From positions 1-13,706 of the forward strand of contig CAYOXM010000029.1 of assembly GCA_964407925.1 (NCBI GenBank): DNA of 13,706 bases, in the 5' to 3' direction. This DNA comes from an uncultured Gammaproteobacteria bacterium. GTDB lineage: Bacteria > Patescibacteriota > Patescibacteriia > SG8-24. Shown here in pieces: positions 1 through 10,330 of this stretch (position 1 is its first letter; each line of letters starts with the position of its first letter). Both the position numbers and the translations under genes were made by a program. The notes beneath the pieces are model-generated. The model saw nothing but the letters and a program-made list of their open reading frames with translations. It was not told where the DNA came from and ran no database searches.

Positions 1-1335
1 ATCGCCGGCGCGTATTGGCGCGGCGACCAGGCGAACAAGCAGCTGCAGCGCGTCTACGGCCTCGCTTTCGCGACGAAGGAGGACTTGGCGAACTACCTCG
101 CCATGATGGAAGAGGCGGAGAAACGCGACCACCGCAAGCTCGGCGCCGAGCTCGACCTCTTCGTGTTTTCCGACCTCGTCGGTCCGGGCCTGCCGCTCTT
201 CACGCCGCGCGGCCAGTTCATCCGCGCCGCGCTCGACGGCTACGTTTGGGAGATGCGCTCCGCCAAGGGCTACGAGCGCGTCGAGATTCCGCACATCACG
301 AAGAAGGACCTGTACGAGAAGAGCGGGCACTGGGCGAAGTACAAGGACGACCTCTTCAAGTTCACGACGCGCGAAGGGCACGAGTTCGCGATGAAGCCGA
401 TGAACTGCCCGCACCACACGCAGATCTACAACCGCCGCCAATGGAGCTATCGCGACCTTCCGCAGCGGTACGCCAATTCGACGATGTGCTACCGCGACGA
501 GCAGACGGGCGAGCTCTCCGGACTCTCCCGCGTCCGCGCCTTCACGCAGGACGACGCGCACGTCTTCTGCCGGATGGATCAGGTGAAGAAGGAGACGCTC
601 ATCATTTGGGACATCATCCATAAGTTCTACGGCGTGTTCGGTCTGAAGCTTTCGCTCCGCCTGTCGCTGCACGACCCGAAGCATCCCGAGAAATACCTCG
701 GCGACAAGGCGTTGTGGGCGAAGGCCGAGGGCGCGCTCCGCGAAGTCGCGAACGCCAAGAAAGTGAAGTTCGTCGAGGCTCCGGGCGAAGCGGCCTTCTA
801 CGGCCCCAAGCTCGACTTCATGGCCGTCGACTCCATCGGCCGGTCGTGGCAGGTGGCGACCATCCAGCTCGACATGGTCATGCCGGAGCGGTTCGACCTG
901 ACCTGCGTGAACGATAAGGGCGAGAAGGAACGCATCGTGATGATCCATGCCGCCATCATGGGTTCGATCGACCGCTTCATGTCGGTGCTCATCGAGCACG
1001 TCGGGGGCGCGTTCCCGGCCTGGCTCGCGCCGACGCAGGTGCAGATCATCCCGGTCGGCAAGGATCACTGGAATGTCGCGAAGAAGTTGAACGACCTGCT
1101 CGCCGCCGAGGGCATCCGCACCGCTTGGGACGAACTGCGCGAGACGGTCGGCTACAAGATACGCAAGTCCGAAAAGATGAAGATCCCGTATATGCTCGTC
1201 ATCGGCGACAAGGAGAAGTCGCTCAAGACCGTGAACGTCCGCATCCGCGGCAAGAAGACGGAGAAGCGGATGACGCTCAAGCAGTTCGTGACGTACGTGA
1301 AGGAGAACGCGGCGAAGAAGAAGTTGGCGCCGTAA
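1..1335 (+). CDS. thrS: Threonyl-tRNA synthetase, C-terminal about 445 aa; 5' end lies outside the window
   Basis: The frame is open from base 1. The class II aaRS catalytic core and anticodon-binding region are recognisable (HRKLGAELDLF, MKPMNCPHH, FTQDDAHVFC, GPKLDF, IHAAIMGSIDRFM). TAA stop at 1333-1335. Confidence 0.9.
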   Translation: MAGAYWRGDQANKQLQRVYGLAFATKEDLANYLAMMEEAEKRDHRKLGAELDLFVFSDLVGPGLPLFTPRGQFIRAALDGYVWEMRSAKGYERVEIPHITKKDLYEKSGHWAKYKDDLFKFTTREGHEFAMKPMNCPHHTQIYNRRQWSYRDLPQRYANSTMCYRDEQTGELSGLSRVRAFTQDDAHVFCRMDQVKKETLIIWDIIHKFYGVFGLKLSLRLSLHDPKHPEKYLGDKALWAKAEGALREVANAKKVKFVEAPGEAAFYGPKLDFMAVDSIGRSWQVATIQLDMVMPERFDLTCVNDKGEKERIVMIHAAIMGSIDRFMSVLIEHVGGAFPAWLAPTQVQIIPVGKDHWNVAKKLNDLLAAEGIRTAWDELRETVGYKIRKSEKMKIPYMLVIGDKEKSLKTVNVRIRGKKTEKRMTLKQFVTYVKENAAKKKLAP

Positions 1336-1402: not shown

Positions 1403-1445
1403 ATCGCGGTGGTGTGCCGCGTTCAGGTGGGGGATGGGATAGCGA

Positions 1446-1476
1446 AAACCGCCTCGAATGGCGGTTTTCGGTCACG
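1446..1476. terminator. Bidirectional intrinsic terminator: AAAACCGCC-tcgaat-GGCGGTTTT
   Basis: 9-bp GC-rich stem flanked by an A-run and a T-run. It sits between convergent thrS (+) and the coiled-coil gene that ends at 1491 (-). Confidence 0.55.
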
Positions 1477-1490
1477 CTCTCTGATATCTT

Positions 1491-2579
1491 TTATGGTTTG
1501 CGGCGTTCGCCCTTGAGCTTCATCGCCTGGGCGACCTGTTCGGGCCGGTTGAGGCGGTTTTCGGTCTCATTGAGTTCCTCTTGACGTTCGGAGTAGCGAT
1601 CGCGGAGGCGTCGGTAGTCCTCAAGTGCGGCGTTCTTCATGCTCTCCTTCTTGCTGAACAGTCCGCCGAAGAAGCTCTTCAGCGATTCCCATCCGCTCGA
1701 TGCGCGTTTCGTCATCTCCGCGTCGGCATCCTGGATGCCGAATTCGCGGTGCAGGCGCCGTTCGGCGGCCGTGACGGCGTTCTGGAGCCCGGGAAGTTCA
1801 GCGCGGAGCAGCTCCGCACGCTCCTCAAGCAACGACTGGTCTTGCGAGCGTCCCTCGTGCCGGTCCTGACGGCGCTGGCCGAGCCGTTCCGTCTCGGTCG
1901 CCTCGAGCTCCTCGCCGGCCTCGTGGGCGGCGCTGATTTTTTCGCCGCGGGCGAAGAACGCATCCTCGGCGGCCTGTTCGTTCAGTTCCGCGAGGTCGAC
2001 GTCGACGCTCTCGTGCTCCTCGGCGGCTGACGCCATCTTCTTCGGAATTTCCACGTCGACGAGCGTGTCGCGGTTTGCCTCGCGTTCCAGGTTCTCGAAC
2101 GCCGCTTCGAGATCGGCCTTGTGTTCTTCGTAGGTGCGCGGCGGTTCGCCGGCCTTGCGCGGGCCGGGTTTCGCGGCCGGCTTCGCCTTGCGCGATTTCG
2201 GCGCGAGCTTTTCGAGCGGCGGGGCGGACGTCACGATGCCCTCGAGCTCGTCGCGCTTGCGGCCGAGCTCCTCGATGTTGCGGTCGATTTCGGCGTTGAT
2301 CTTTTTCGCCATCGATTCCGAGAGCGCGGAGTTTTTCAGGTTGACCTCCTTCTGTTCGGCCATCTGTTCCATCTTCCGCGTCAGCGCCGCGGCGGATTCG
2401 CCGCCGTCGCGCAGCACCACGCCCGACTCGCGGTCGTTCGTCTCGTTCGCGGGTTCGCTCCTGAGCTCGGACGCGTCGGTCAGCCCCTCCATCTCGACGG
2501 GGGACTCCTCTTTCTTTTTCTTGCCGCGCCGTTTCGGCAGTTCCGGCGGCTTCGCGCGTCCGTGTTCGGCTCGCATCAT
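1491..2579 (-). CDS. Coiled-coil protein B, about 362 aa, E/K/R/A-rich; paralog of the upstream gene. Unknown function.
   Basis: Minus-strand ORF with protein-like coiled-coil composition; the plus-strand frames here are low-complexity junk. It shares a C-terminal module with protein A (RDTLVD; AEDAFFARGEKISAAHEAGEELE; GIQDADAEMTKRASSGWESLKSFFGGLFSKK). The start is placed at the ATG-ATG at 2579/2576 because the ORF track's start at 2825 would run through the upstream gene's terminator. An alternative start is the ATG at 2492, preceded by GAGGAG 12 nt upstream. TAA stop at 1491-1493. Confidence 0.6.
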   Translation of the reverse strand: MMRAEHGRAKPPELPKRRGKKKKEESPVEMEGLTDASELRSEPANETNDRESGVVLRDGGESAAALTRKMEQMAEQKEVNLKNSALSESMAKKINAEIDRNIEELGRKRDELEGIVTSAPPLEKLAPKSRKAKPAAKPGPRKAGEPPRTYEEHKADLEAAFENLEREANRDTLVDVEIPKKMASAAEEHESVDVDLAELNEQAAEDAFFARGEKISAAHEAGEELEATETERLGQRRQDRHEGRSQDQSLLEERAELLRAELPGLQNAVTAAERRLHREFGIQDADAEMTKRASSGWESLKSFFGGLFSKKESMKNAALEDYRRLRDRYSERQEELNETENRLNRPEQVAQAMKLKGERRKP

Positions 2580-2620
2580 AAGGGTGGCGGTGAGGGCTGT
2601 GGATGTGTGGTTACGAGGGC

Positions 2621-2629
2621 ATTCTAGCA
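2621..2629 (-). promoter_or_regulatory. Extended -10 promoter element TGcTAGAAT on the minus strand, located between the protein-A terminator and the protein-B start.
   Basis: Reverse complement of attctagca. This fits the TGnTAnAAT consensus. The -35 is weak (TTTTGC/TTTGCG), which is typical for extended -10 promoters. Confidence 0.4.
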
Positions 2630-2645
2630 CGAACGCCGCAGACGC

Positions 2646-2674
2646 AAAACCCGCCCCTGTGCGGGGCGGGTTTT
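2646..2674 (-). terminator. Intrinsic terminator AAAA-CCCGCCCC-tgtgc-GGGGCGGG-TTTT, bidirectional in form, 12 nt downstream of the protein-A stop.
   Basis: Perfect 8-bp G/C stem flanked by an A-run and a T-run; on the minus strand it reads hairpin then TTTTGCG. Confidence 0.7.
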
Positions 2675-2685
2675 CGGCCGTGCGA

Positions 2686-4089
2686 TTACTGGCGGCCCTG
2701 GCGGTTTTCCATGGCGATGCGCGCCATTTCCTTCTGCCTGTCGGTAGGGTTGAGCTGCATGTCGAGTTTGGCGAGCTTGTCTGCCATCTCGTTATGCTGG
2801 TCACGGACGCTCTCGTACAGGCCAACGGCGTGGTTCAGCTCGCGGGCCTTCTTATTGAAGAGTCCGCCGAGGAATCCCTTAGCCTTGCCGAAGAAGCCGT
2901 CCTTGGCGCGCTGCGTCATCATTCCGTCGACGTCCTTTACGCCGAGGTCGTTGAGGTACTTCTCGGCACGGGCGAGCTGGCGCTGCATTTCCGGCATCTG
3001 GCTGCGGAGCTTCTCCGCTTCCTGAGCCATCTCCGCGCGCTCGGCGCCGGCGTCGCCGCGCCGTTCCGCGGCGCTGCGGTTCTCGAGCGTCTGGCCCGCG
3101 CGATGGACGGCATCGATGACTTCTCCCTTCTGGAAGAATTCGTCCTCGGCCTTGGTGTCCGCGGGTTCGTCAATGAGTTCTTCCGCCTGGACTTCGATTT
3201 CCGGTTCGTCGACGAGGGTGTCGCGTCGGTCTTCGGCGACGTTTTCCATGCGTCCGGCCATTCCGGCATCGGGGAGCGTGTCGCGTTTGCCCGCCTCCTC
3301 CTCTTTGACGCGCTGCTTTTCAATTTCGAGAAGACCTTGCACGTCGATCGGATCTTCCTGTGCGATCTTATCCATGGCCGCCATCTTTTCGTCCACGCGC
3401 TCGCCCATGGCGGCGATGCGTTTTTCGCGCGCGTCTTCATTGAGTTCCGTAAGGTCGACGTCGACCTCTTCCGGCGTCGCTTCTTTGAGCGGCTCGAGCG
3501 CCGCGTCGATGTCGGCTTCGGTCGCGCCGGCGAGTTCCGCCTTGGCGGCGGCTTCCTTGGCGACGTACTTGTCCTTCATTCCGCCGAGTTCGTTGCGCGC
3601 TTCCTGCCATGCGGCGGTGGCGTCTTCAAGCTGGCGTTCCAGCTTCGCCTTCGCGTCCGGGTTCTTCTCGTTCTTGTAGTCAGCTTCGAGGCCGCGCATG
3701 ATCGCTTCGGCGTCGGCGACGTTGTCCTTCAGCTCGCCGACGCGGTAGGCGTCGATCTGGAAGGCGTTCGCCTCCTTGCCGTACTTGCCGAGGACGGCGT
3801 TGACCTTGTCCTGCAGCGAATCGATTTCCTTGTCGATGGCGCCGGACGCGACCCCGGGCTTCAGCTCAAGGACGTTGCCGGCCTTGGCGAGCTCGTTCTT
3901 CTGGTCGATCATCTTGTCGCGCTTCGCTTCGAGGGCGAGGAGCGCTTCGGCATCCTTCATGAAGTCCGGCATCCCGGGCTCCGCGCCTTCCGCCTCCAGC
4001 TCGTCGGCGACGCTCTCGAGGTCGTGCTTAGGTTTGCGTTCCTTTGACGCTTCGTTAGGCATCATAGGGGAGGATTCCCTGCTGCGCAT
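2686..4089 (-). CDS. Coiled-coil protein A, 467 aa, D/E/K/A-rich with long predicted helices. Unknown function; paralog of protein B.
   Basis: GC3 of the minus frame is about 85% in a sampled stretch (3361-3420). The only plus-strand ORF here (2134-4047) is Ser/Ala-rich with no protein-like composition. Motifs shared with B: RDTLVD, EDEFFQKGEVIDAVHRAGQTLE, and GVKDVDGMMTQRAKDGFFGKAKGFLGGLFNKK. There is an internal repeat of the DVDLxELNE block. No Walker or other catalytic motifs are seen. Start is the ATG at 4089 (alternatively the ATG at 4065/4062); no Shine-Dalgarno (SD) sequence is present. TAA stop at 2686-2688. Confidence 0.7.
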   Translation of the reverse strand: MRSRESSPMMPNEASKERKPKHDLESVADELEAEGAEPGMPDFMKDAEALLALEAKRDKMIDQKNELAKAGNVLELKPGVASGAIDKEIDSLQDKVNAVLGKYGKEANAFQIDAYRVGELKDNVADAEAIMRGLEADYKNEKNPDAKAKLERQLEDATAAWQEARNELGGMKDKYVAKEAAAKAELAGATEADIDAALEPLKEATPEEVDVDLTELNEDAREKRIAAMGERVDEKMAAMDKIAQEDPIDVQGLLEIEKQRVKEEEAGKRDTLPDAGMAGRMENVAEDRRDTLVDEPEIEVQAEELIDEPADTKAEDEFFQKGEVIDAVHRAGQTLENRSAAERRGDAGAERAEMAQEAEKLRSQMPEMQRQLARAEKYLNDLGVKDVDGMMTQRAKDGFFGKAKGFLGGLFNKKARELNHAVGLYESVRDQHNEMADKLAKLDMQLNPTDRQKEMARIAMENRQGRQ

Positions 4090-4119: not shown

Positions 4120-4148
4120 AGCATAGCATTTTTTTGCTCCGTTGTCAA
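4120..4148 (-). promoter_or_regulatory. Sigma70-like promoter on the minus strand: TTGACA (4148..4143), 17-nt spacer, TATGCT (4125..4120). It lies in an AT-rich gap and drives protein A.
   Basis: Perfect -35 consensus with 17-bp spacing in a locally AT-rich intergenic region of a GC-rich genome. The predicted transcription start is near 4113, about 24 nt before the ATG at 4089. Confidence 0.5.
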
Positions 4149-4174: not shown

Positions 4175-4217
4175 AAAGATAAAAAATACCGTGACTGGAT
4201 CACGGTATCCGTCACGG
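4175..4217 (-). terminator. Hairpin (CCGTGA-ctgga-TCACGG, or alternatively CCGTGAC/GTCACGG) followed on the minus strand by TATTTTTTAT. Putative terminator of the small gene; it overlaps that gene's stop codon.
   Basis: Inverted repeats and a 6-T run read on the minus strand. The stem is short (6-7 bp), hence the moderate confidence. Confidence 0.4.
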
Positions 4218-4604
4218 TTTCGCTTGGAGAAGCTGGATCAGCGGTTCGACGCGCTCGAGGCCGCTGGCCGTTGTGATTTTGAGGAAGGACCCCGCCTCTC
4301 GGCGGGTATCTTCTTTGACGGCAGCCTTGAACGGCTCCGTCACCACAACGATGTACCCATCATTGTGCCTCATGATCTTTTCGACCTTCGCGACGCCCGT
4401 CAGGTCATCGCCGTTCCTCACGACGCAGGTGAGCGTCTGAAGCCAGGGAAGGGGGAGCAGCGGTCCCGGCGCATGGAGCTCCATCAGGAGGCGGTTGCAG
4501 CGGATGTGCGCTGCGGTGACGGAGAGGATGCGGCCGAAGAGGCGCTGATCTGTTGTCCTGGAGGTGAAAAGGCCGCGGACGTTGCTTTGATTTTTTTCTT
4601 GCAC
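4212..4604 (-). CDS. Small hypothetical protein, about 130 aa. Function unknown.
   Basis: The minus frame has GC3 of 75-80% in two sampled 60-nt stretches, against about 50% for the competing plus ORF (4191-4637). The proposed start is the GTG at 4604, with AAAGGGGG placed 6 nt upstream. Alternatives are the TTG at 4634, which the ORF track used, or the ATG at 4484. TGA stop at 4212-4214. No recognisable domain by eye. Confidence 0.5.
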   Translation of the reverse strand: MQEKNQSNVRGLFTSRTTDQRLFGRILSVTAAHIRCNRLLMELHAPGPLLPLPWLQTLTCVVRNGDDLTGVAKVEKIMRHNDGYIVVVTEPFKAAVKEDTRREAGSFLKITTASGLERVEPLIQLLQAKP

Positions 4605-4649
4605 GGCGGACCCCCTTTCGGGGTGAGGGTTCAATAGCCAGCTAGCCAG

Positions 4650-4942: not shown

Positions 4943-6982
4943 TCAGGCCTGCTTCGGGGTGGCGCCGTTGCCGGGGCCTTCCTTACGGGTCGCGGGCGCA
5001 GGTTCGACCGCTGCCGGCGCTGCGGATGCCGCGACCGTCGCGCCGCCGAGCAGTCCGCCGGAGCGGAGGCCCTTGATGAGCGTCGCCGCGAGGCCTTCGG
5101 TGGCACCGCCGCCGCCCGTGACGAGAACGTCCGGGACGAGCCGCGTGTTGCTGCGCGCGATCGCTTCGAGGGCGTTGACGATGGCCGTCGCTTCCTTGCC
5201 GAGCGAGTCGACCTGCTTCTGGTAGCCGGCCGCCTTGGCTTCGCCGATCGCCTTGATCTCTGCGCCCTTGGCTTCGCCGACCTTGTTGAGGTAGTAGGCC
5301 TCGCCATCGGCTTCCTTCTGGCGCGACTGCGCCTGGTTGCCCTTGATGTCGATGCCGACCTTTGATCGCGCGAGGTCTGCCTGCATGTCGGCCGTGCCTT
5401 TCGCCATTTCCATGGCGACGCGCTGGTCCTCGGACTCCTTCTGCTTCTTGAACGTCTCGATTTCCTGGTTGGCGATCTCGCGTTCCGTCAGCACCTTCAC
5501 CAGCTCCTCGGGCAGGATGACGTCCTGGATGTAGACGCCCTTCGTCTCCACCTTGTAGTCCTTGAGCTGTGCGCTGATGTGCTCGTTCGCCTTGGACTGG
5601 ACGTCCTGGCGCTTGGCGATGAAGTCCACGGCCGGCATGCTCTGCAGCTTGTCGCGGAAGTGGTTGCCCACCGCCGCCTGCAGGACCTCGTTGACGAGGT
5701 TGTGCATGGTGCCGACGCTCGAGATGACCTTGGGGGCCATGGCGTCGGGGACGTGGATCTGGACCTGCAGGTCGATCTTGAAGACGAACCCTTCGTTCGA
5801 CTTCGCGACGATCTGCTGGAGGCCCTGATCGAGCGTGTGCGCCTTCGACGTCGCGTCCGCCCAGTTCAGGGTGAGGATCGCCGTCGGGACGAGTTCCGCC
5901 TCGTAGCAACGCGGGTTGAGCGCGTACTTGCCGGTGCGGAGCGGCTCTTGCCAGATGCCGCGGTGGCCCGGCTTCACGATGGAGCCGTGCTTGAACTGCT
6001 CGCCGGACGTGTCCTCGGTCGGCAGGCCGACGTAGGCCTTGATGACCGCGACCTCGCCTTGCTTCACGACGAGCATGCGCACGAAGTCGACCTTCACCAG
6101 GAACGGGTTCAGCGTGTACTCGCCGTAGAGCAGCGGATCGTGCTGAAGCCCGATCTTGCCGCCCGCGTCGAGGAACGCCTGGAAGTCCTGGTAGTTGTTG
6201 TGCTTGTCGTTCTTGGTGCCGAGCACCTTCTCGACGAGCTCCGCGTCCTTGCAGTCGCGGCCTTCCATCTCGGAGATGTCCGTGAAACCGCCCAGGCGGC
6301 AGGCGATGTCGCCCGAGGCGAGCGGGTCGCCTTCGAACGTCGTCACGATGCCGACGATGTCGGTCACCTTGCCGCCCTCCTCCTTCATCGGCTGGATGCG
6401 CACCAGCTTGAGCTGGTCCGGCGTCAGGCCGAAGGCACCGCAGTTGAGCTCTCCCTTGCCGTACCGCCGCAGCTCGGGCGAGACGGGGAGGCCGAACACC
6501 TTCTTCTGCGTGATGACGAGGAAGGCGACGGGATGGAGCGGCAGGAGCGTGCCCGGAGGCAGCACCGGCCGTTGGACGCCCTTCTGCCCCTCGCCGGTCA
6601 GGAACTCTTGGACCTTCGAGAAGTTGCCGAACTCCTTCTTGTACTTCGCCGATTTGGCGCCGTTCGGAAGGGGTTTGCCGACCTGGGCGATGACCACGCC
6701 GATCTCGTCGGACGCGACCTGGACCCACGGGAACTTCTGGACGCCGTAGAGCGGCCAGAACTTGAACCGGAGACCGGGCATGAGGAGCTCGGCCTGATAG
6801 CCCGCCTCGCCGTTGAAGGCGATGGGGTTGTCGTCGGTGAGCTTCTTCGTGGACCACCGCTTGGTGATCAGGCCTACCTCGGTCGGACCGACCGAGTGGA
6901 CGGACTTGAGGACGATGAACGCCAGCGTGAGCGTGGCGAAGATCGCCGCGTACAGCGCCGGGTTCAGCAGAATTTCAGCCAT
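4943..6982 (-). CDS. Flotillin-like SPFH/band-7 membrane protein (YqiK/FloT type), about 679 aa.
   Basis: N-terminal transmembrane helix (ILLNPALYAAIFATLTLAFIVL), then a long SPFH-like region, then the flotillin EA/coiled-coil region (GEAKGAEIKAIGEAKAAGYQKQ). The C-terminus has RLVPDVLVTGGGGATEGL, which resembles the conserved flotillin tail (…IVIIDGGSGG…). Start is the ATG at 6982, with a perfect AAGGAG 8 nt upstream. The ORF track's longer N-terminal extension has no SD and is not protein-like. TGA stop at 4943-4945. Confidence 0.85.
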   Translation of the reverse strand: MAEILLNPALYAAIFATLTLAFIVLKSVHSVGPTEVGLITKRWSTKKLTDDNPIAFNGEAGYQAELLMPGLRFKFWPLYGVQKFPWVQVASDEIGVVIAQVGKPLPNGAKSAKYKKEFGNFSKVQEFLTGEGQKGVQRPVLPPGTLLPLHPVAFLVITQKKVFGLPVSPELRRYGKGELNCGAFGLTPDQLKLVRIQPMKEEGGKVTDIVGIVTTFEGDPLASGDIACRLGGFTDISEMEGRDCKDAELVEKVLGTKNDKHNNYQDFQAFLDAGGKIGLQHDPLLYGEYTLNPFLVKVDFVRMLVVKQGEVAVIKAYVGLPTEDTSGEQFKHGSIVKPGHRGIWQEPLRTGKYALNPRCYEAELVPTAILTLNWADATSKAHTLDQGLQQIVAKSNEGFVFKIDLQVQIHVPDAMAPKVISSVGTMHNLVNEVLQAAVGNHFRDKLQSMPAVDFIAKRQDVQSKANEHISAQLKDYKVETKGVYIQDVILPEELVKVLTEREIANQEIETFKKQKESEDQRVAMEMAKGTADMQADLARSKVGIDIKGNQAQSRQKEADGEAYYLNKVGEAKGAEIKAIGEAKAAGYQKQVDSLGKEATAIVNALEAIARSNTRLVPDVLVTGGGGATEGLAATLIKGLRSGGLLGGATVAASAAPAAVEPAPATRKEGPGNGATPKQA

Positions 6983-7104
6983 TTTTCTCTCTCCTTGCGC
7001 GAATTGTGAGGGAACTTTTGCCGCCTTTTGGCGGGCTCCCCGTGTCTTCGGGAAGCGCCACCACTGTGCGCTTTCTGCCGAAAAAGTCAATGCCCCCGCG
7101 ACTG

Positions 7105-9700: not shown

Positions 9701-9877
9701 ATGGCCGAAGCGGTCATCGGATACTGCGTCAAGTGCAAGGAGAAGCGCGAGATGAAGGACGCGAACCAGATCGAGATGCCGGCGAAAGGCGGCGGCACTC
9801 GCCCTGCCATGAAGGGCACCTGCAGCGTTTGCGGGACCGGCATGTTCAAGATTCTTCCCAAGTCGGCGGCCAAGTAA
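9701..9877 (+). CDS. Small zinc-ribbon-like protein, 58 aa (GYCVKCKEK … GTCSVCGTG). Resembles the widespread DUF5679-type CxxC...CxxC mini-proteins.
   Basis: ATG at 9701, TAA at 9875-9877. GC3 is about 85%. Two CxxC pairs are present. A strong terminator follows immediately. The gene is absent from the supplied ORF track because it is under 60 aa. No SD is present. Confidence 0.65.
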   Translation: MAEAVIGYCVKCKEKREMKDANQIEMPAKGGGTRPAMKGTCSVCGTGMFKILPKSAAK

Positions 9878-9890
9878 GCCGTCGGAAGAC

Positions 9891-9926
9891 GAAAAATTCC
9901 GCCATAACGGCGGAATTTTTCTTTTG
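9891..9926. terminator. Strong intrinsic terminator GAAAAATTCCGCC-ataac-GGCGGAATTTTTC-TTTTG; bidirectional in form.
   Basis: Perfect 12-bp stem with an A-run and a T-run, 14 nt after the small-gene stop. Confidence 0.7.
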
Positions 9927-9929
9927 TAC

Positions 9930-10188
9930 GCGACATTTCCACGGTTATCGTGTCAAAGCCGGCCGCGGAATGGTCCGCCCCGTGCGGACCGGGGTAATTG
10001 GTCCGCAGGGGCTGCCCTTCCGCGGCCTCCGCCCTCGCCGCTCGTCGCTCCGCACTCGATGATGGGGGATGGAAATCCGACCTCCGGCCCATGCGTCGCC
10101 ATTGATGCCTCGTCGGGTCGGATTTCTCGAAGCATCTCTAACCTCGGCTCCGAACCCGGCCGCTAGAAGGATGATAAGAGGGGGTGAC
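9930..10188. ncRNA. Candidate structured noncoding RNA of unknown class and unknown strand, about 260 nt, bounded by terminators on both sides.
   Basis: No credible ORF: all frames give Arg/Gly/Pro-rich junk. Multiple stems are present: GGTCCGC-cccgt-GCGGACC (9972-9990), and a perfect 11-bp stem GAAATCCGACC (10070-10080) paired with GGTCGGATTTC (10114-10124) enclosing 33 nt. Intrinsic terminators flank the region on both sides. Confidence 0.25.
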
Positions 10189-10229
10189 AAAAACCGCCCG
10201 TCGACAGGGCGGTTTCATATTTTCTTTTT
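10189..10229. terminator. Bidirectional intrinsic terminator AAAAACCGCCC-gtcgaca-GGGCGGTTT-catATTTTCTTTTT. It serves gatB on the minus strand and any plus-strand transcript coming from the 9930-10188 region.
   Basis: 8-9-bp G/C stem with T-runs on both strands. Lies 115 nt downstream of the gatB stop. Confidence 0.7.
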
Positions 10230-10330
10230 AGCCGAGCGGAGCCGTTTAGCCGAGCGCGGAGGCCGCGCCGGGCGTTCCGCAAGGCGACCGTTTCCGCAGG
10301 TCGCCGGCGGAATGCCCAGGCAGGCCGGCT

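What the first reader, a model, noticed from the sequence alone, without database searches (positions are those of the whole stretch)
1491..4089. Tandem paralogs define a candidate new coiled-coil family with a conserved C-terminal module
Proteins A and B are otherwise divergent E/K/D/A-rich helical proteins, but they share an ordered set of motifs. These are RDTLVD, then an acidic stretch, then (A/E)ED(A/E)FF(A/Q)(R/K)GE(K/V)I(S/D)A(A/V)H(E/R)AG(E/Q)xLE, then a coiled coil. Next comes G(I/V)(Q/K)D(A/V)D…MT(K/Q)RA…(W/F)…FFG/FLGGLF(S/N)KK, followed by a final helix. A contains an internal duplication of the DVDLxELNE block. Neither protein has a P-loop or other catalytic signature. The Gly-Leu-Phe motif with flanking lysines could be a membrane-binding amphipathic segment, loosely reminiscent of the H0 helix of PspA/Vipp1 but positioned at the C-terminus.
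Basis: seen in the sequence. Interest (0 to 1): 0.65.

Follow-up and report, generated by a model that had tools for sequence, protein, structure and literature searches.

The report
Orphan coiled-coil paralogs with amphipathic motif
Two neighbouring genes encode related, mostly helical proteins of a very rare, unnamed family from uncultured bacteria; they share a C-terminal module whose conserved greasy, positively charged stretch looks like a membrane anchor, but what they do has not been tested.

Summary
Genes A (1491-2579, minus strand, 362 aa) and B (2686-4065, minus strand, 459 aa) are true paralogs. They are 35% identical over 188 C-terminal residues (E 2e-23; 89 bits against 17±2 for shuffles).

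The shared ~165-aa module matches no Pfam, NCBIfam, PADLOC, PHROG or PDB entry. An exhaustive profile search of 1.84 billion representative proteins found 19 hits, of which 18 are family members. The family is real, unnamed and very narrow.

In every locus long enough to show neighbours, the genes lie between miaB and thrS. There are often two or three paralogs per locus. The first gene sits behind an invariant TTGAC-N17-TGCTAnnnT promoter.

AlphaFold2 predicts all-helical proteins. The module has two long helices with heptad periodicity, and fold matches are generic coiled coils. No link to PspA/Vipp1/ESCRT-III was detectable.

The conserved K-G-F-[FL]-GG-L-F-x-K-K stretch copies the hydrophobic pattern of the E. 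coli MinD membrane-targeting tail (KKGFLKRLFGG). It is the best cationic amphipathic window in 21 of 24 members.

My best guess, which is inferred and not shown, is a cytoplasmic coiled-coil scaffold that docks on the membrane. The claimed internal duplication in A was not found. Interest is moderate to low.

The parts
2686..4065 (-). Gene B, 459 aa, the upstream paralog. It is acidic (net charge -35) and all-helical. It has an N-terminal helical domain specific to the B type, then the shared C-terminal module.
   Evidence: ORF. The start at MMPNE is set by orthologs P0001-P0003 and by the called NCBI product P0012. AlphaFold2 model: all helix, pLDDT 66.7. Charge.
1491..2579 (-). Gene A, 362 aa, the downstream paralog. 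It has a basic N-terminal peptide (MMRAEHGRAKPPELPKRRGKKKK), an IVTSAPPLEKL motif, and then the shared C-terminal module.
   Evidence: Identical to P0004 from an NCBI contig of 13706 bp. Orthologs P0005-P0009. Sequence.
2689..3183 (-). C-terminal module of B (residues 295-459), about 165 aa. This is the family-defining unit.
   Evidence: Alignments A3 and A4. AlphaFold2 pLDDT 83, pTM 0.62, with helices at 10-28, 38-79, 85-107, 111-144 and 148-163. The long helices show heptad periodicity. Coordinates checked.
1494..1994 (-). C-terminal module of A (residues 196-362).
   Evidence: BLASTP against B, alignment A3, coordinates checked.
2848..2895 (-). Cationic amphipathic motif of B: FFGKAKGFLGGLFNKK (residues 391-406).
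   Evidence: It is the highest HeliQuest-type score in the whole protein (D=1.45). It resembles the E. coli MinD tail KKGFLKRLFGG. It lies in the lowest-confidence interior block of the module model, residues 101-110 with pLDDT 69.
1647..1691 (-). Cationic amphipathic motif of A: WESLKSFFGGLFSKK (residues 297-311).
3094..3150 (-). First conserved helix of the module in B: AEDEFFQKGEVIDAVHRAG. It is preceded by an acidic tract. The first Phe is invariant and Gly and His are nearly invariant across 23 sequences.
   Evidence: Alignment A4, coordinates.
1914..1970 (-). The same helix in A: AEDAFFARGEKISAAHEAG.
2205..2237 (-). IVTSAPPLEKL short motif in A. After an acidic run it follows the pattern V-[VI]-T-S-A-P-x-[LM]-E-x-L. 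It is shared with many single-copy and short family members but is absent from B.
4120..4148 (-). Promoter of B: TTGACA, 17 nt, TG-n-TATGCT (sigma-70 type with an extended -10).
   Evidence: Scan: 10 of 12 matches plus TG. TTGAC and TGCTA...T are invariant upstream of the first family gene in 8 loci.
2650..2665 (-). Intrinsic terminator between B and A (CCCGC-ACAGGG-GCGGG followed by TTTTG). A TGCTAGAAT extended -10 for A follows it.
1441..1475 (-). Terminator-like hairpin after A (CGAAAACCGCC-ATTCGA-GGCGGTTTTCG).
   Evidence: Read directly from the sequence. The pattern scan did not list it.
4212..4634 (-). Conserved 140-aa ORF upstream of the pair, of unknown function, ending in LLQAKP. It was found only in four of the loci that carry two family genes. 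It has its own terminator at 4184-4210. It may be functionally associated with the pair.
   Evidence: Alignment A5, 78-81% identity to L001 and L002 and 29% to L006. tblastn finds it only in L001, L002 and L006. No Pfam, NCBIfam, PDB, PADLOC or PHROG hit. Terminator.

Best explanation
A and B are two paralogs of a small, lineage-restricted and so far unnamed family of cytoplasmic coiled-coil proteins. Every member ends in the same ~165-aa helical module.

Module layout, in order:
- an acidic tract;
- a conserved helix, E-D-x-F-F-x-R-G-E...H..G;
- a long heptad helix;
- a short helix carrying a Gly-rich, Lys-flanked hydrophobic stripe, K-G-F-[FL]-GG-L-F-x-K-K;
- a second long heptad helix;
- a short basic tail helix.

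Proposed mechanism (inferred):
- The two long helices pair, within or between subunits, into a coiled-coil hairpin or bundle that drives oligomerisation. This may include A/B hetero-oligomers.
- The amphipathic F-F/L-F stripe and the net-positive C-terminal ~100 residues dock the assembly onto the anionic cytoplasmic membrane surface, much as the MinD tail or the DivIVA loop does.
- The variable, highly acidic helical middle acts as a spacer.
- The conserved short motifs (N-terminal MMxxE..PE..KRRxKK, VVTSAPxLExL, RIxAMGxRVD) act as handles for unknown partners.

What is shown: paralogy, family boundaries, rarity, synteny, promoter conservation, predicted helicity, heptad periodicity, and the amphipathic and cationic character of the motif.

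What is inferred: membrane binding, oligomerisation and the scaffold role.
For: PARALOGY AND FAMILY.
- A against B: E 2e-23, and 89 bits against 17±2 for shuffles.
- The exhaustive profile search found 19 hits in 1.84 billion representatives, 15 of them at E<=1e-10. In every full-length member the module is at the C-terminus.

REAL, EXPRESSED GENES.
- An invariant TTGAC-N17-TGCTAnnnT promoter lies upstream of the first family gene in 8 loci.
- Each gene has its own terminator.
- The reading frame and motifs are conserved down to about 23% identity.

STRUCTURE.
- AlphaFold2 gives all-helical models. The module scores pLDDT 83 and contains helices of 42 and 34 residues.
- The strongest hydrophobic periodicity in those helices is 3.5 residues.

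CYTOPLASMIC, NOT INTEGRAL.
- There is no hydrophobic segment: the maximum Kyte-Doolittle 19-mer score is 0.19 for A and 0.69 for B.
- The N-termini are hydrophilic and carry no signal peptide.

MEMBRANE-ANCHOR-LIKE MOTIF.
- It is the best cationic amphipathic 14-mer in 21 of 24 members. In two of the other three, the best window overlaps the same stretch. It sits a fairly constant 65-86 residues from the C-terminus in 23 of the 24.
- Distant members replace GG with KK (FFKKLFNKK, FFKKMFNEK) but keep the i, i+1, i+4, i+5 hydrophobic pattern.
- The E. coli MinD tail reads KKGFLKRLFGG.
- In B (net -35) the only net-positive stretch is the last ~100 residues.
- The motif lies in the module's lowest-confidence interior block, pLDDT 69. 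That fits a segment that orders only on a surface.

RETAINED PARALOGS.
- Two or three paralogs occur in the window, L001, L002, L006, L011 and L005. L003 has a long copy plus a frameshifted short one.
Against: - There is no experimental or contextual evidence for any function. The neighbours (miaB, thrS, miaA, gatB, tmk) are unrelated housekeeping genes, and each family gene is its own transcription unit.
- The amphipathic stretch is internal, not terminal as in MinD. In the monomer model it is part of a helix (85-107) that could simply pack against the two long helices as a buried core. I had no access to the model coordinates to check exposure.
- Its hydrophobic moment is moderate, 0.3-0.5, below that of Vipp1 and PspA H0.
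- Three short members (P0019, P0022, and the frameshifted copy in L003) have a degenerate or missing motif.
- The adjacent SPFH membrane-scaffold gene, which might have supported a membrane role, is present only in this window.
Confidence: 0.4

Rival explanations
1. The proteins are soluble coiled-coil scaffolds or adaptors with no membrane contact. The FFGGLF stripe is a buried hydrophobic core or hinge that holds the third helix against the hairpin. The module is purely an oligomerisation domain, and the conserved short motifs recruit cytoplasmic partners.
For: In the AlphaFold2 model the motif lies within a helix (85-107) and at the kink before helix 111-144, inside a fairly compact module with pTM 0.62. 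The invariant GG in close members fits a structural helix break. Fold matches are to generic soluble coiled coils such as MukB, Rad50, Shroom2 and prefoldin.
Against: Distant members replace GG with KK while keeping the amphipathic pattern and the flanking lysines. That is easier to explain by surface or lipid contact than by a buried hinge. The motif region has the lowest confidence inside the module. The surrounding ~100 residues form a basic island in an otherwise very acidic protein.
Confidence: 0.27
2. The family is a very divergent branch of the PspA/Vipp1/ESCRT-III membrane-remodelling superfamily. The two long helices would be the alpha1-alpha2 hairpin, and the amphipathic stretch would replace helix alpha0.
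Confidence: 0.07
3. The proteins bind nucleic acid or the nucleoid. The basic N-terminal peptide (KRRGKKKK) and the basic C-terminal tail would bind DNA or RNA, and the coiled coil would bridge between them.
For: A has a Lys/Arg-rich N-terminal peptide, and the C-terminal ~100 residues are net positive. The neighbours are tRNA-related genes (miaA, miaB, thrS, gatB) in all loci.
Against: Overall the proteins are strongly acidic: B has net charge -35 and pI 4.7, A has net charge -10. There is no known nucleic-acid-binding domain. B lacks the basic N-terminal run. The family genes have their own promoters and terminators rather than sharing an operon with the tRNA genes.
Confidence: 0.08
4. The proteins are hydrophilic stress protectants of the LEA or hydrophilin type, or a storage-granule coat of the phasin type. 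They would act through bulk physicochemical properties rather than specific interactions.
For: The composition is rich in E, K, A, D and R. The proteins are predicted helical with long low-confidence linkers. The promoter is strong and conserved.
Against: Several short, position-specific motifs with invariant Phe, His, Gly and Arg are conserved down to about 23% identity. That pattern is not what bulk protectants would be expected to show. There are no 11-mer repeats and no internal repeats. No LEA or phasin family appears among the Pfam families listed at E<=10.
Confidence: 0.06

Closest known systems
MinD C-terminal membrane-targeting sequence (E. coli MinD ...EEEKKGFLKRLFGG)
   Same: Both are short, Lys-flanked amphipathic stretches with the same hydrophobic pattern, Phe/Leu at i, i+1, i+4 and i+5. 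B has KGFLGGLF against MinD's KGFLKRLF, which is 6 of 8 identical. The hydrophobic moment, hydrophobicity and charge are comparable. That the MinD tail binds membrane as an amphipathic helix is established knowledge (my recall, not tested here).
   Different: In this family the stretch is internal, 65-86 residues from the C-terminus in 23 of the 24 members, and is flanked by helices. The carrier is a coiled-coil protein with no P-loop, not a ParA/MinD ATPase. This is a resemblance of a short motif, not homology.
PspA / Vipp1 (IM30) / ESCRT-III superfamily
   Different: No sequence or profile similarity is detectable. The amphipathic segment is near the C-terminus instead of being the N-terminal helix alpha0. 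The proteins are 1.5-2.5 times longer, with acidic spacers. There are no psp-type neighbours.
DivIVA/GpsB-type and other bacterial coiled-coil-rich scaffold proteins
   Same: The concept is the same: cytoplasmic coiled-coil oligomers that touch the membrane through exposed Phe and basic residues at a helix-turn element and recruit partners through short motifs. This comparison rests on my knowledge of DivIVA.
   Different: No DivIVA family appears among the Pfam families listed at E<=10. In DivIVA the lipid-binding element is N-terminal. There is no division or cell-wall gene context here.
BAR / F-BAR / eisosome (Pil1/Lsp1) helical bundles
   Same: The top Foldseek hits of the full-length B model are APPL BAR-PH chains (E 0.016-0.06), followed by F-BAR and Lsp1/Pil1. 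All of these are membrane-binding helical bundles.
   Different: TM-scores are only about 0.2, rmsd is about 40 Å, and no hit reaches E<=0.001. The model has low confidence outside the helices. I treat these as generic long-helix matches.

Membership tests
PspA/Vipp1/ESCRT-III superfamily | Detectable sequence or profile similarity to PspA_IM30 (PF04012), Snf7 (PF03357), or solved PspA, Vipp1 or ESCRT-III chains | tested here: not met
   The Pfam scan of A and B at E<=1 gave nothing relevant, and neither family is among those listed for the 24 members at E<=10. The PDB profile search at E<=10 returned no such chain. hhalign against E. coli PspA gave probabilities of 1.5% and 0.6%.
PspA/Vipp1/ESCRT-III superfamily | An N-terminal amphipathic helix (alpha0/H0) directly preceding the alpha1-alpha2 hairpin | tested here: not met
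   The N-termini are hydrophilic (MMRAEHGRAKPPE in A, MMPNEASKERKPK in B). The only strong cationic amphipathic window lies 65-86 residues from the C-terminus in 23 of the 24 members.
PspA/Vipp1/ESCRT-III superfamily | The ESCRT-III fold: a long alpha1-alpha2 hairpin plus alpha3-alpha5 | tested here: inconclusive
MinD-type membrane-targeting sequence (functional motif class, not a protein family) | A short amphipathic helix with hydrophobic residues at i, i+1, i+4 and i+5, flanked by Lys or Arg | tested here: met
   The family motif is K-G-F-[FL]-[GG or KK]-L-F-x-K-K, against MinD's KKGFLKRLFGG. It is the top-scoring window in 21 of 24 members.
MinD-type membrane-targeting sequence (functional motif class, not a protein family) | Located at the extreme C-terminus of a ParA/MinD P-loop ATPase | tested here: not met
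   The motif is internal, with a 34-residue helix and a tail helix following it. There is no Walker A motif.
MinD-type membrane-targeting sequence (functional motif class, not a protein family) | Demonstrated binding to lipid bilayers | not testable with these tools
   This needs liposome co-sedimentation or localisation experiments.
   None of these is among the families listed in a Pfam scan of all 24 members at E<=10. The most recurrent family was DUF4407, in 3 members with a best E of 0.17.
SPFH/flotillin-associated partner (NfeD-like logic) | Conserved adjacency to an SPFH/Band_7 gene | tested here: not met
   The SPFH gene (4943-7090) is present only in the window. tblastn finds it in none of L001-L007, and the gene tables of the other loci show none.
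The new family itself (working definition) | A C-terminal ~165-aa module with E-D-x-F-F-x-R-G-E...H..G, two heptad helices and K-G-F-F-G-G-L-F-x-K-K, encoded between miaB and thrS | tested here: met
   Both A and B carry it. The synteny holds in the window and in L001-L006, L011, L012 and the P0025 contig.

The most novel reading that the evidence does not exclude
A and B, and their paralogs elsewhere, form a previously unknown membrane-associated cytoskeletal or membrane-shaping polymer in an uncultured bacterial lineage. They would be hetero-oligomeric coiled-coil filaments that bind the inner membrane through an embedded MinD-like amphipathic stripe and recruit partners through the conserved N-terminal and VVTSAPxLExL peptides. 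In function this would parallel DivIVA, PspA or ESCRT-III, but with an independent origin.
Probability: 0.15. Interest if true: 0.65.

Novelty: new variant of a known kind. Interest (0 to 1): 0.35.

Why it matters
If the membrane-scaffold reading is right, this would be an independently evolved coiled-coil membrane adaptor. It would reuse the MinD-type amphipathic solution in an internal position, in a lineage known only from metagenomes. It would also give that lineage a first candidate for an abundant structural protein, since the genes sit behind a strong, invariant promoter.

In practical terms, the work defines a clean orphan family that could be deposited as a new domain of unknown function. 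The family has about 18 clusters at 50% identity, a fixed genomic position between miaB and thrS, and recognisable motifs. If the function turns out to be mundane, the finding is only a lineage-specific hypothetical protein family.

Tried and rejected
FAMILY LIBRARIES. Pfam, NCBIfam, PADLOC and PHROGs scans of A, B and the small ORF gave nothing significant. A Pfam scan of all 24 members at E<=10 gave nothing recurrent.

PDB SEQUENCE SEARCH. The profile search gave only keratin at E 0.059 and noise.

FOLD SEARCHES.
- The afdb50 library was unavailable.

PspA. hhalign against E. coli PspA was negative.

OTHER COLLECTIONS.
- The word-indexed protein search with the 23-sequence profile returned only 2 hits, because of the candidate cap.
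- The metagenome contigs and viral-contig scans found no relatives, so nothing points to a phage origin.
- The genome-contig scan found one locus only.

LITERATURE. Searches for the motif strings and for the accession prefixes found nothing relevant.

TAXONOMY.
- I could not establish it.
- The only named relative is labelled 'uncultured Gammaproteobacteria'. That label fits poorly: the window's MiaB is 37% identical to E. coli MiaB, the window's GatB is closest to the Thermotoga and Aquifex proteins, and the relative's own ThrS is closest to the S. aureus enzyme and lacks the TGS domain.

OTHER.
- Internal repeats in A and B: none by self-BLAST.
- Rfam in the two long non-coding stretches gave only sub-threshold noise.
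- The long plus-strand ORF 2134-4047 that overlaps both genes is treated as a high-GC artefact. It crosses the B/A terminator, and the conservation is in the minus-strand frames.


Full report
WHAT IS THERE

The interval holds two co-oriented minus-strand genes.

The downstream gene, A, runs from 1491 to 2579 and encodes 362 aa. It starts at an ATGATG, not at the TTG at 2825 that the mechanical ORF list gives. The longer reading would overlap gene B and run through the hairpin-plus-T-tract terminator at 2650-2665. The 362-aa product is identical to a called NCBI protein, P0004, on a contig of exactly 13,706 bp.

The upstream gene, B, runs from 2686 to 4065 and encodes 459 aa. All orthologs and the called product P0012 start at MMPNE, not 8 codons earlier.

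B is preceded by TTGACA-17-TG-n-TATGCT at 4148-4120. A is preceded by a TGCTAGAAT extended -10 and followed by a hairpin with a T-run at 1441-1475. The two genes are therefore neighbours with separate transcription signals.

IS THE SIMILARITY REAL?

Yes. BLASTP with compositional adjustment aligns A 170-344 (362-aa numbering) to B 261-439 at 35% identity, E 2e-23. The real score is 89 bits, against 16.9±2.2 (maximum 24.3) for 200 shuffles of B.

Neither protein has a Walker A motif.

One detail fails. DVDLxELNE occurs once in each protein, not twice in A. The only short repeat is RDTL, twice in B, and self-BLAST shows no internal duplication.

FAMILY AND DISTRIBUTION

Word-indexed searches found three B orthologs (56-65% identity) and five A orthologs (49-77%).

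A profile of the C-terminal ~165 residues (alignment A3) was run exhaustively against 1.84 billion cluster representatives. It returned only 19 proteins at E<=0.001, 15 of them at E<=1e-10. One weak hit is a TPR false positive.

Members are 192-542 aa long, and in every full-length member the module is at the C-terminus. Across 23 sequences the first Phe of the FF pair is invariant. Nearly invariant positions (numbered in the 165-residue module of B) are G20, H27, E40, L77, R92, K102, L108 and F109.

No Pfam, NCBIfam, PADLOC or PHROG model matches. No PDB sequence matches. Literature searches for the motifs or accessions found nothing. Scans of viral and JGI metagenome contig collections found no relatives. 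Among 185,579 species-representative genomes only one locus was found.

The family is real, unnamed and extremely narrow.

GENOMIC CONTEXT

In every locus long enough to show neighbours, the family gene or genes lie between miaB (divergent) and thrS (convergent). These loci are the window, L001-L006, L011, L012 and the P0025 contig.

Multiple copies per locus are common:
- B-type plus A-type in the window, L001 and L002.
- An A-like short gene plus a B-like gene in L006.
- A long 422-aa gene plus a short 208-aa gene in L011.
- A long gene plus a frameshifted short copy in L003.
- Three copies in L005, two of them between miaA and miaB.
- A single copy in L004 and L012.

A rough neighbour-joining tree puts the B clade with the long single-copy forms and the A clade apart from it. 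The A/B duplication therefore predates the divergence of the window, L001 and L002 genomes.

A conserved 140-aa ORF (4212-4634) was found in four of the loci that carry two family genes, namely the window, L001, L002 and L006. It matches nothing known.

The SPFH/Band_7 gene next door (4943-7090) is unique to this window, so it gives no conserved functional link.

Upstream of the first family gene, TTGAC and TGCTA...T at 17-nt spacing are invariant in eight loci that are otherwise poorly alignable. This argues for strong housekeeping-type transcription.

STRUCTURE

AlphaFold2 predicts full-length B as entirely helical, with low-confidence linkers (pLDDT 66.7). The module alone, modelled with 23 sequences, scores pLDDT 83 and pTM 0.62. 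Its helices are at 10-28 (the FF..GE..H..G helix), 38-79, 85-107 (ending in KGFLGG), 111-144 and 148-163.

The two long helices have their strongest hydrophobic periodicity at 3.5 residues, which indicates coiled-coil packing.

Fold searches were not informative:
- Foldseek gives nothing at E<=0.001. Vipp1 appears at E about 1, and BAR/F-BAR domains appear for full-length B at E>=0.016 with TM about 0.2.

The fold is a generic helical hairpin or bundle and cannot be assigned to a known superfamily.

THE AMPHIPATHIC MOTIF

There is no transmembrane segment and no signal peptide.

B has net charge -35 and A has -10. In B, the last ~100 residues are the only net-positive stretch of the protein.

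Within that stretch, FFGKAKGFLGGLFNKK (B) and WESLKSFFGGLFSKK (A) give the best HeliQuest-type scores in their proteins, D of 1.45 and 1.28. Across the family the best 14-mer falls in this motif in 21 of 24 members. In two of the other three it overlaps the motif just upstream. The motif sits 65-86 residues from the C-terminus in 23 of the 24.

Distant members replace GG with KK (FFKKLFNKK, FFKKMFNEK) but keep hydrophobic residues at i, i+1, i+4 and i+5. The E. coli MinD tail, read from the genome, is EEEKKGFLKRLFGG, so KGFLGGLF in B and KGFLKRLF in MinD share 6 of 8 positions. That the MinD tail is a membrane-targeting amphipathic helix is established knowledge, recalled rather than tested here.

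This is the main basis for my preferred mechanism. It is a resemblance and not a demonstration. The segment could instead be a buried core element of the bundle, and I could not inspect the model coordinates.

PspA/Vipp1 TEST

- hhalign of the module or the full-length alignment against E. coli PspA gives probabilities of 1.5% and 0.6%.
- There are no PspA, Snf7 or Vipp1 hits in the PDB searches, and none among the Pfam families listed, at E<=10.
- The amphipathic segment is at the wrong end of the protein.
- The gene context is unrelated.

OTHER CONSERVED PIECES

Several short motifs recur:
- An N-terminal peptide, MMxxE(R)G..PEE..KRRxKK.
- An acidic run followed by V-[VI]-T-S-A-P-x-[LM]-E-x-L (A 115-125), absent from B.
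- An R-I-x-A-M-G-x-R-V-D motif, present once in B (216-225) and repeated four to five times in P0021.

Conserved ends with a variable acidic helical middle is the layout of a tether or adaptor. This is part of why I favour a scaffold role.

LINEAGE

The lineage is unresolved. The single named genome is titled 'uncultured Gammaproteobacteria bacterium'. Three results make that label doubtful:
- The window's MiaB is only 37% identical to E. coli MiaB.
- Its GatB is closer to the Thermotoga and Aquifex proteins than to the Pseudomonas one.
- The ThrS of that named genome (L003) is closest to the S. aureus enzyme and lacks the N-terminal TGS domain.

VERDICT

My best mechanistic guess, at 0.4, is a cytoplasmic coiled-coil scaffold, possibly an A/B hetero-oligomer, docked on the membrane by the embedded MinD-like amphipathic stripe. 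The main rival, at 0.27, is a soluble scaffold in which that stripe is structural. Membership of PspA/ESCRT-III is unlikely (0.07).

Because nothing ties the family to a process, and coiled-coil orphan families are common in uncultured lineages, interest is moderate to low (0.35).

Noticed in passing
window 4943-7090 (-): A 715-aa SPFH/Band_7 protein (Pfam E 1.9e-17) lies between miaB and the small ORF. It has an N-terminal hydrophobic segment, a long unannotated region before the SPFH domain, and an Ala/Gly-rich tail. It is absent from all related loci, where miaB directly abuts the small ORF or the family gene, so it looks like a lineage-specific insertion. This exact sequence is not in the 15-billion-protein collection.
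   Followed up: partly
window 4212-4634 (-): A conserved 140-aa ORF of unknown function ends in LLQAKP and has its own terminator at 4184-4210. It was found only in four of the loci that carry two family genes (window, L001, L002, L006). It has no hit in any library.
   Followed up: partly
window 9701-9877 (+): A 58-aa zinc-ribbon-like ORF (CxxC...CxxC) lies downstream of miaA. It sits where the related loci have a gene annotated with PF18930 (DUF5679). It falls below the 60-aa default of the ORF list.
   Followed up: partly
window 9880-10330: About 450 bp lies between the DUF5679-like ORF and the end of gatB with no convincing ORF. Rfam gives only sub-threshold hits (best 23 bits against a gathering score of 114).
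   Followed up: partly
L003 10480-10931 (+): A second, short-form family member (P0019-like, starting MNEMLKPEM) lies directly after the 401-aa gene. It is split into two ORFs and lacks the amphipathic motif. It is either a pseudogene or an assembly frameshift.
   Followed up: partly
L005 4882-6532 (+) and 8001-9452 (+): One locus carries three family members: P0027 (283 aa) and P0024 (192 aa) between miaA and miaB, and P0020 (483 aa) between miaB and thrS. The called start of P0020 is probably 22 codons too early, since the conserved MMRGEGFNPEE is internal. The same probably applies to P0018 in L004.
   Followed up: partly
P0016, P0017, P0021, P0023 and L011 5419-6687: The long single-copy forms carry an extra conserved, probably globular insert (ELYTETVGAAGSIEALKNVVDMIG...WIDMA.QFP...NYGLR[D/E]KV). 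They also carry repeats of an R-I-D-A-M-G-K-R-V-D motif. B has one copy of that motif (RIAAMGERVD, residues 216-225).
   Followed up: no
P0003 (L002 7368-8996) against A-type tails: The B ortholog in L002 has an A-type C-terminal tail (NRLNSPEAVRQAMQLKAERK), unlike the other B orthologs (MQLNPTDRQKEM..). This suggests gene conversion between the tandem paralogs, or retention of an ancestral tail. P0002 and P0003 also carry a 21-residue insert before the DxD motif.
   Followed up: no
window 85-1335 (+) and L003 11000-12820 (-): ThrS in this lineage is about 605 aa and aligns from about residue 69 of the S. aureus and E. coli enzymes, so it lacks the N-terminal TGS domain. Together with the window's MiaB (37% identical to E. 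coli) and the GatB affinities, this makes the 'Gammaproteobacteria' title of the only named relative doubtful.
   Followed up: partly
window 2134-4047 (+): A 637-aa ORF lies on the opposite strand and spans both genes and the intergenic terminator. This is typical of a 63% GC antisense frame. No evidence supports it as a gene.
   Followed up: no
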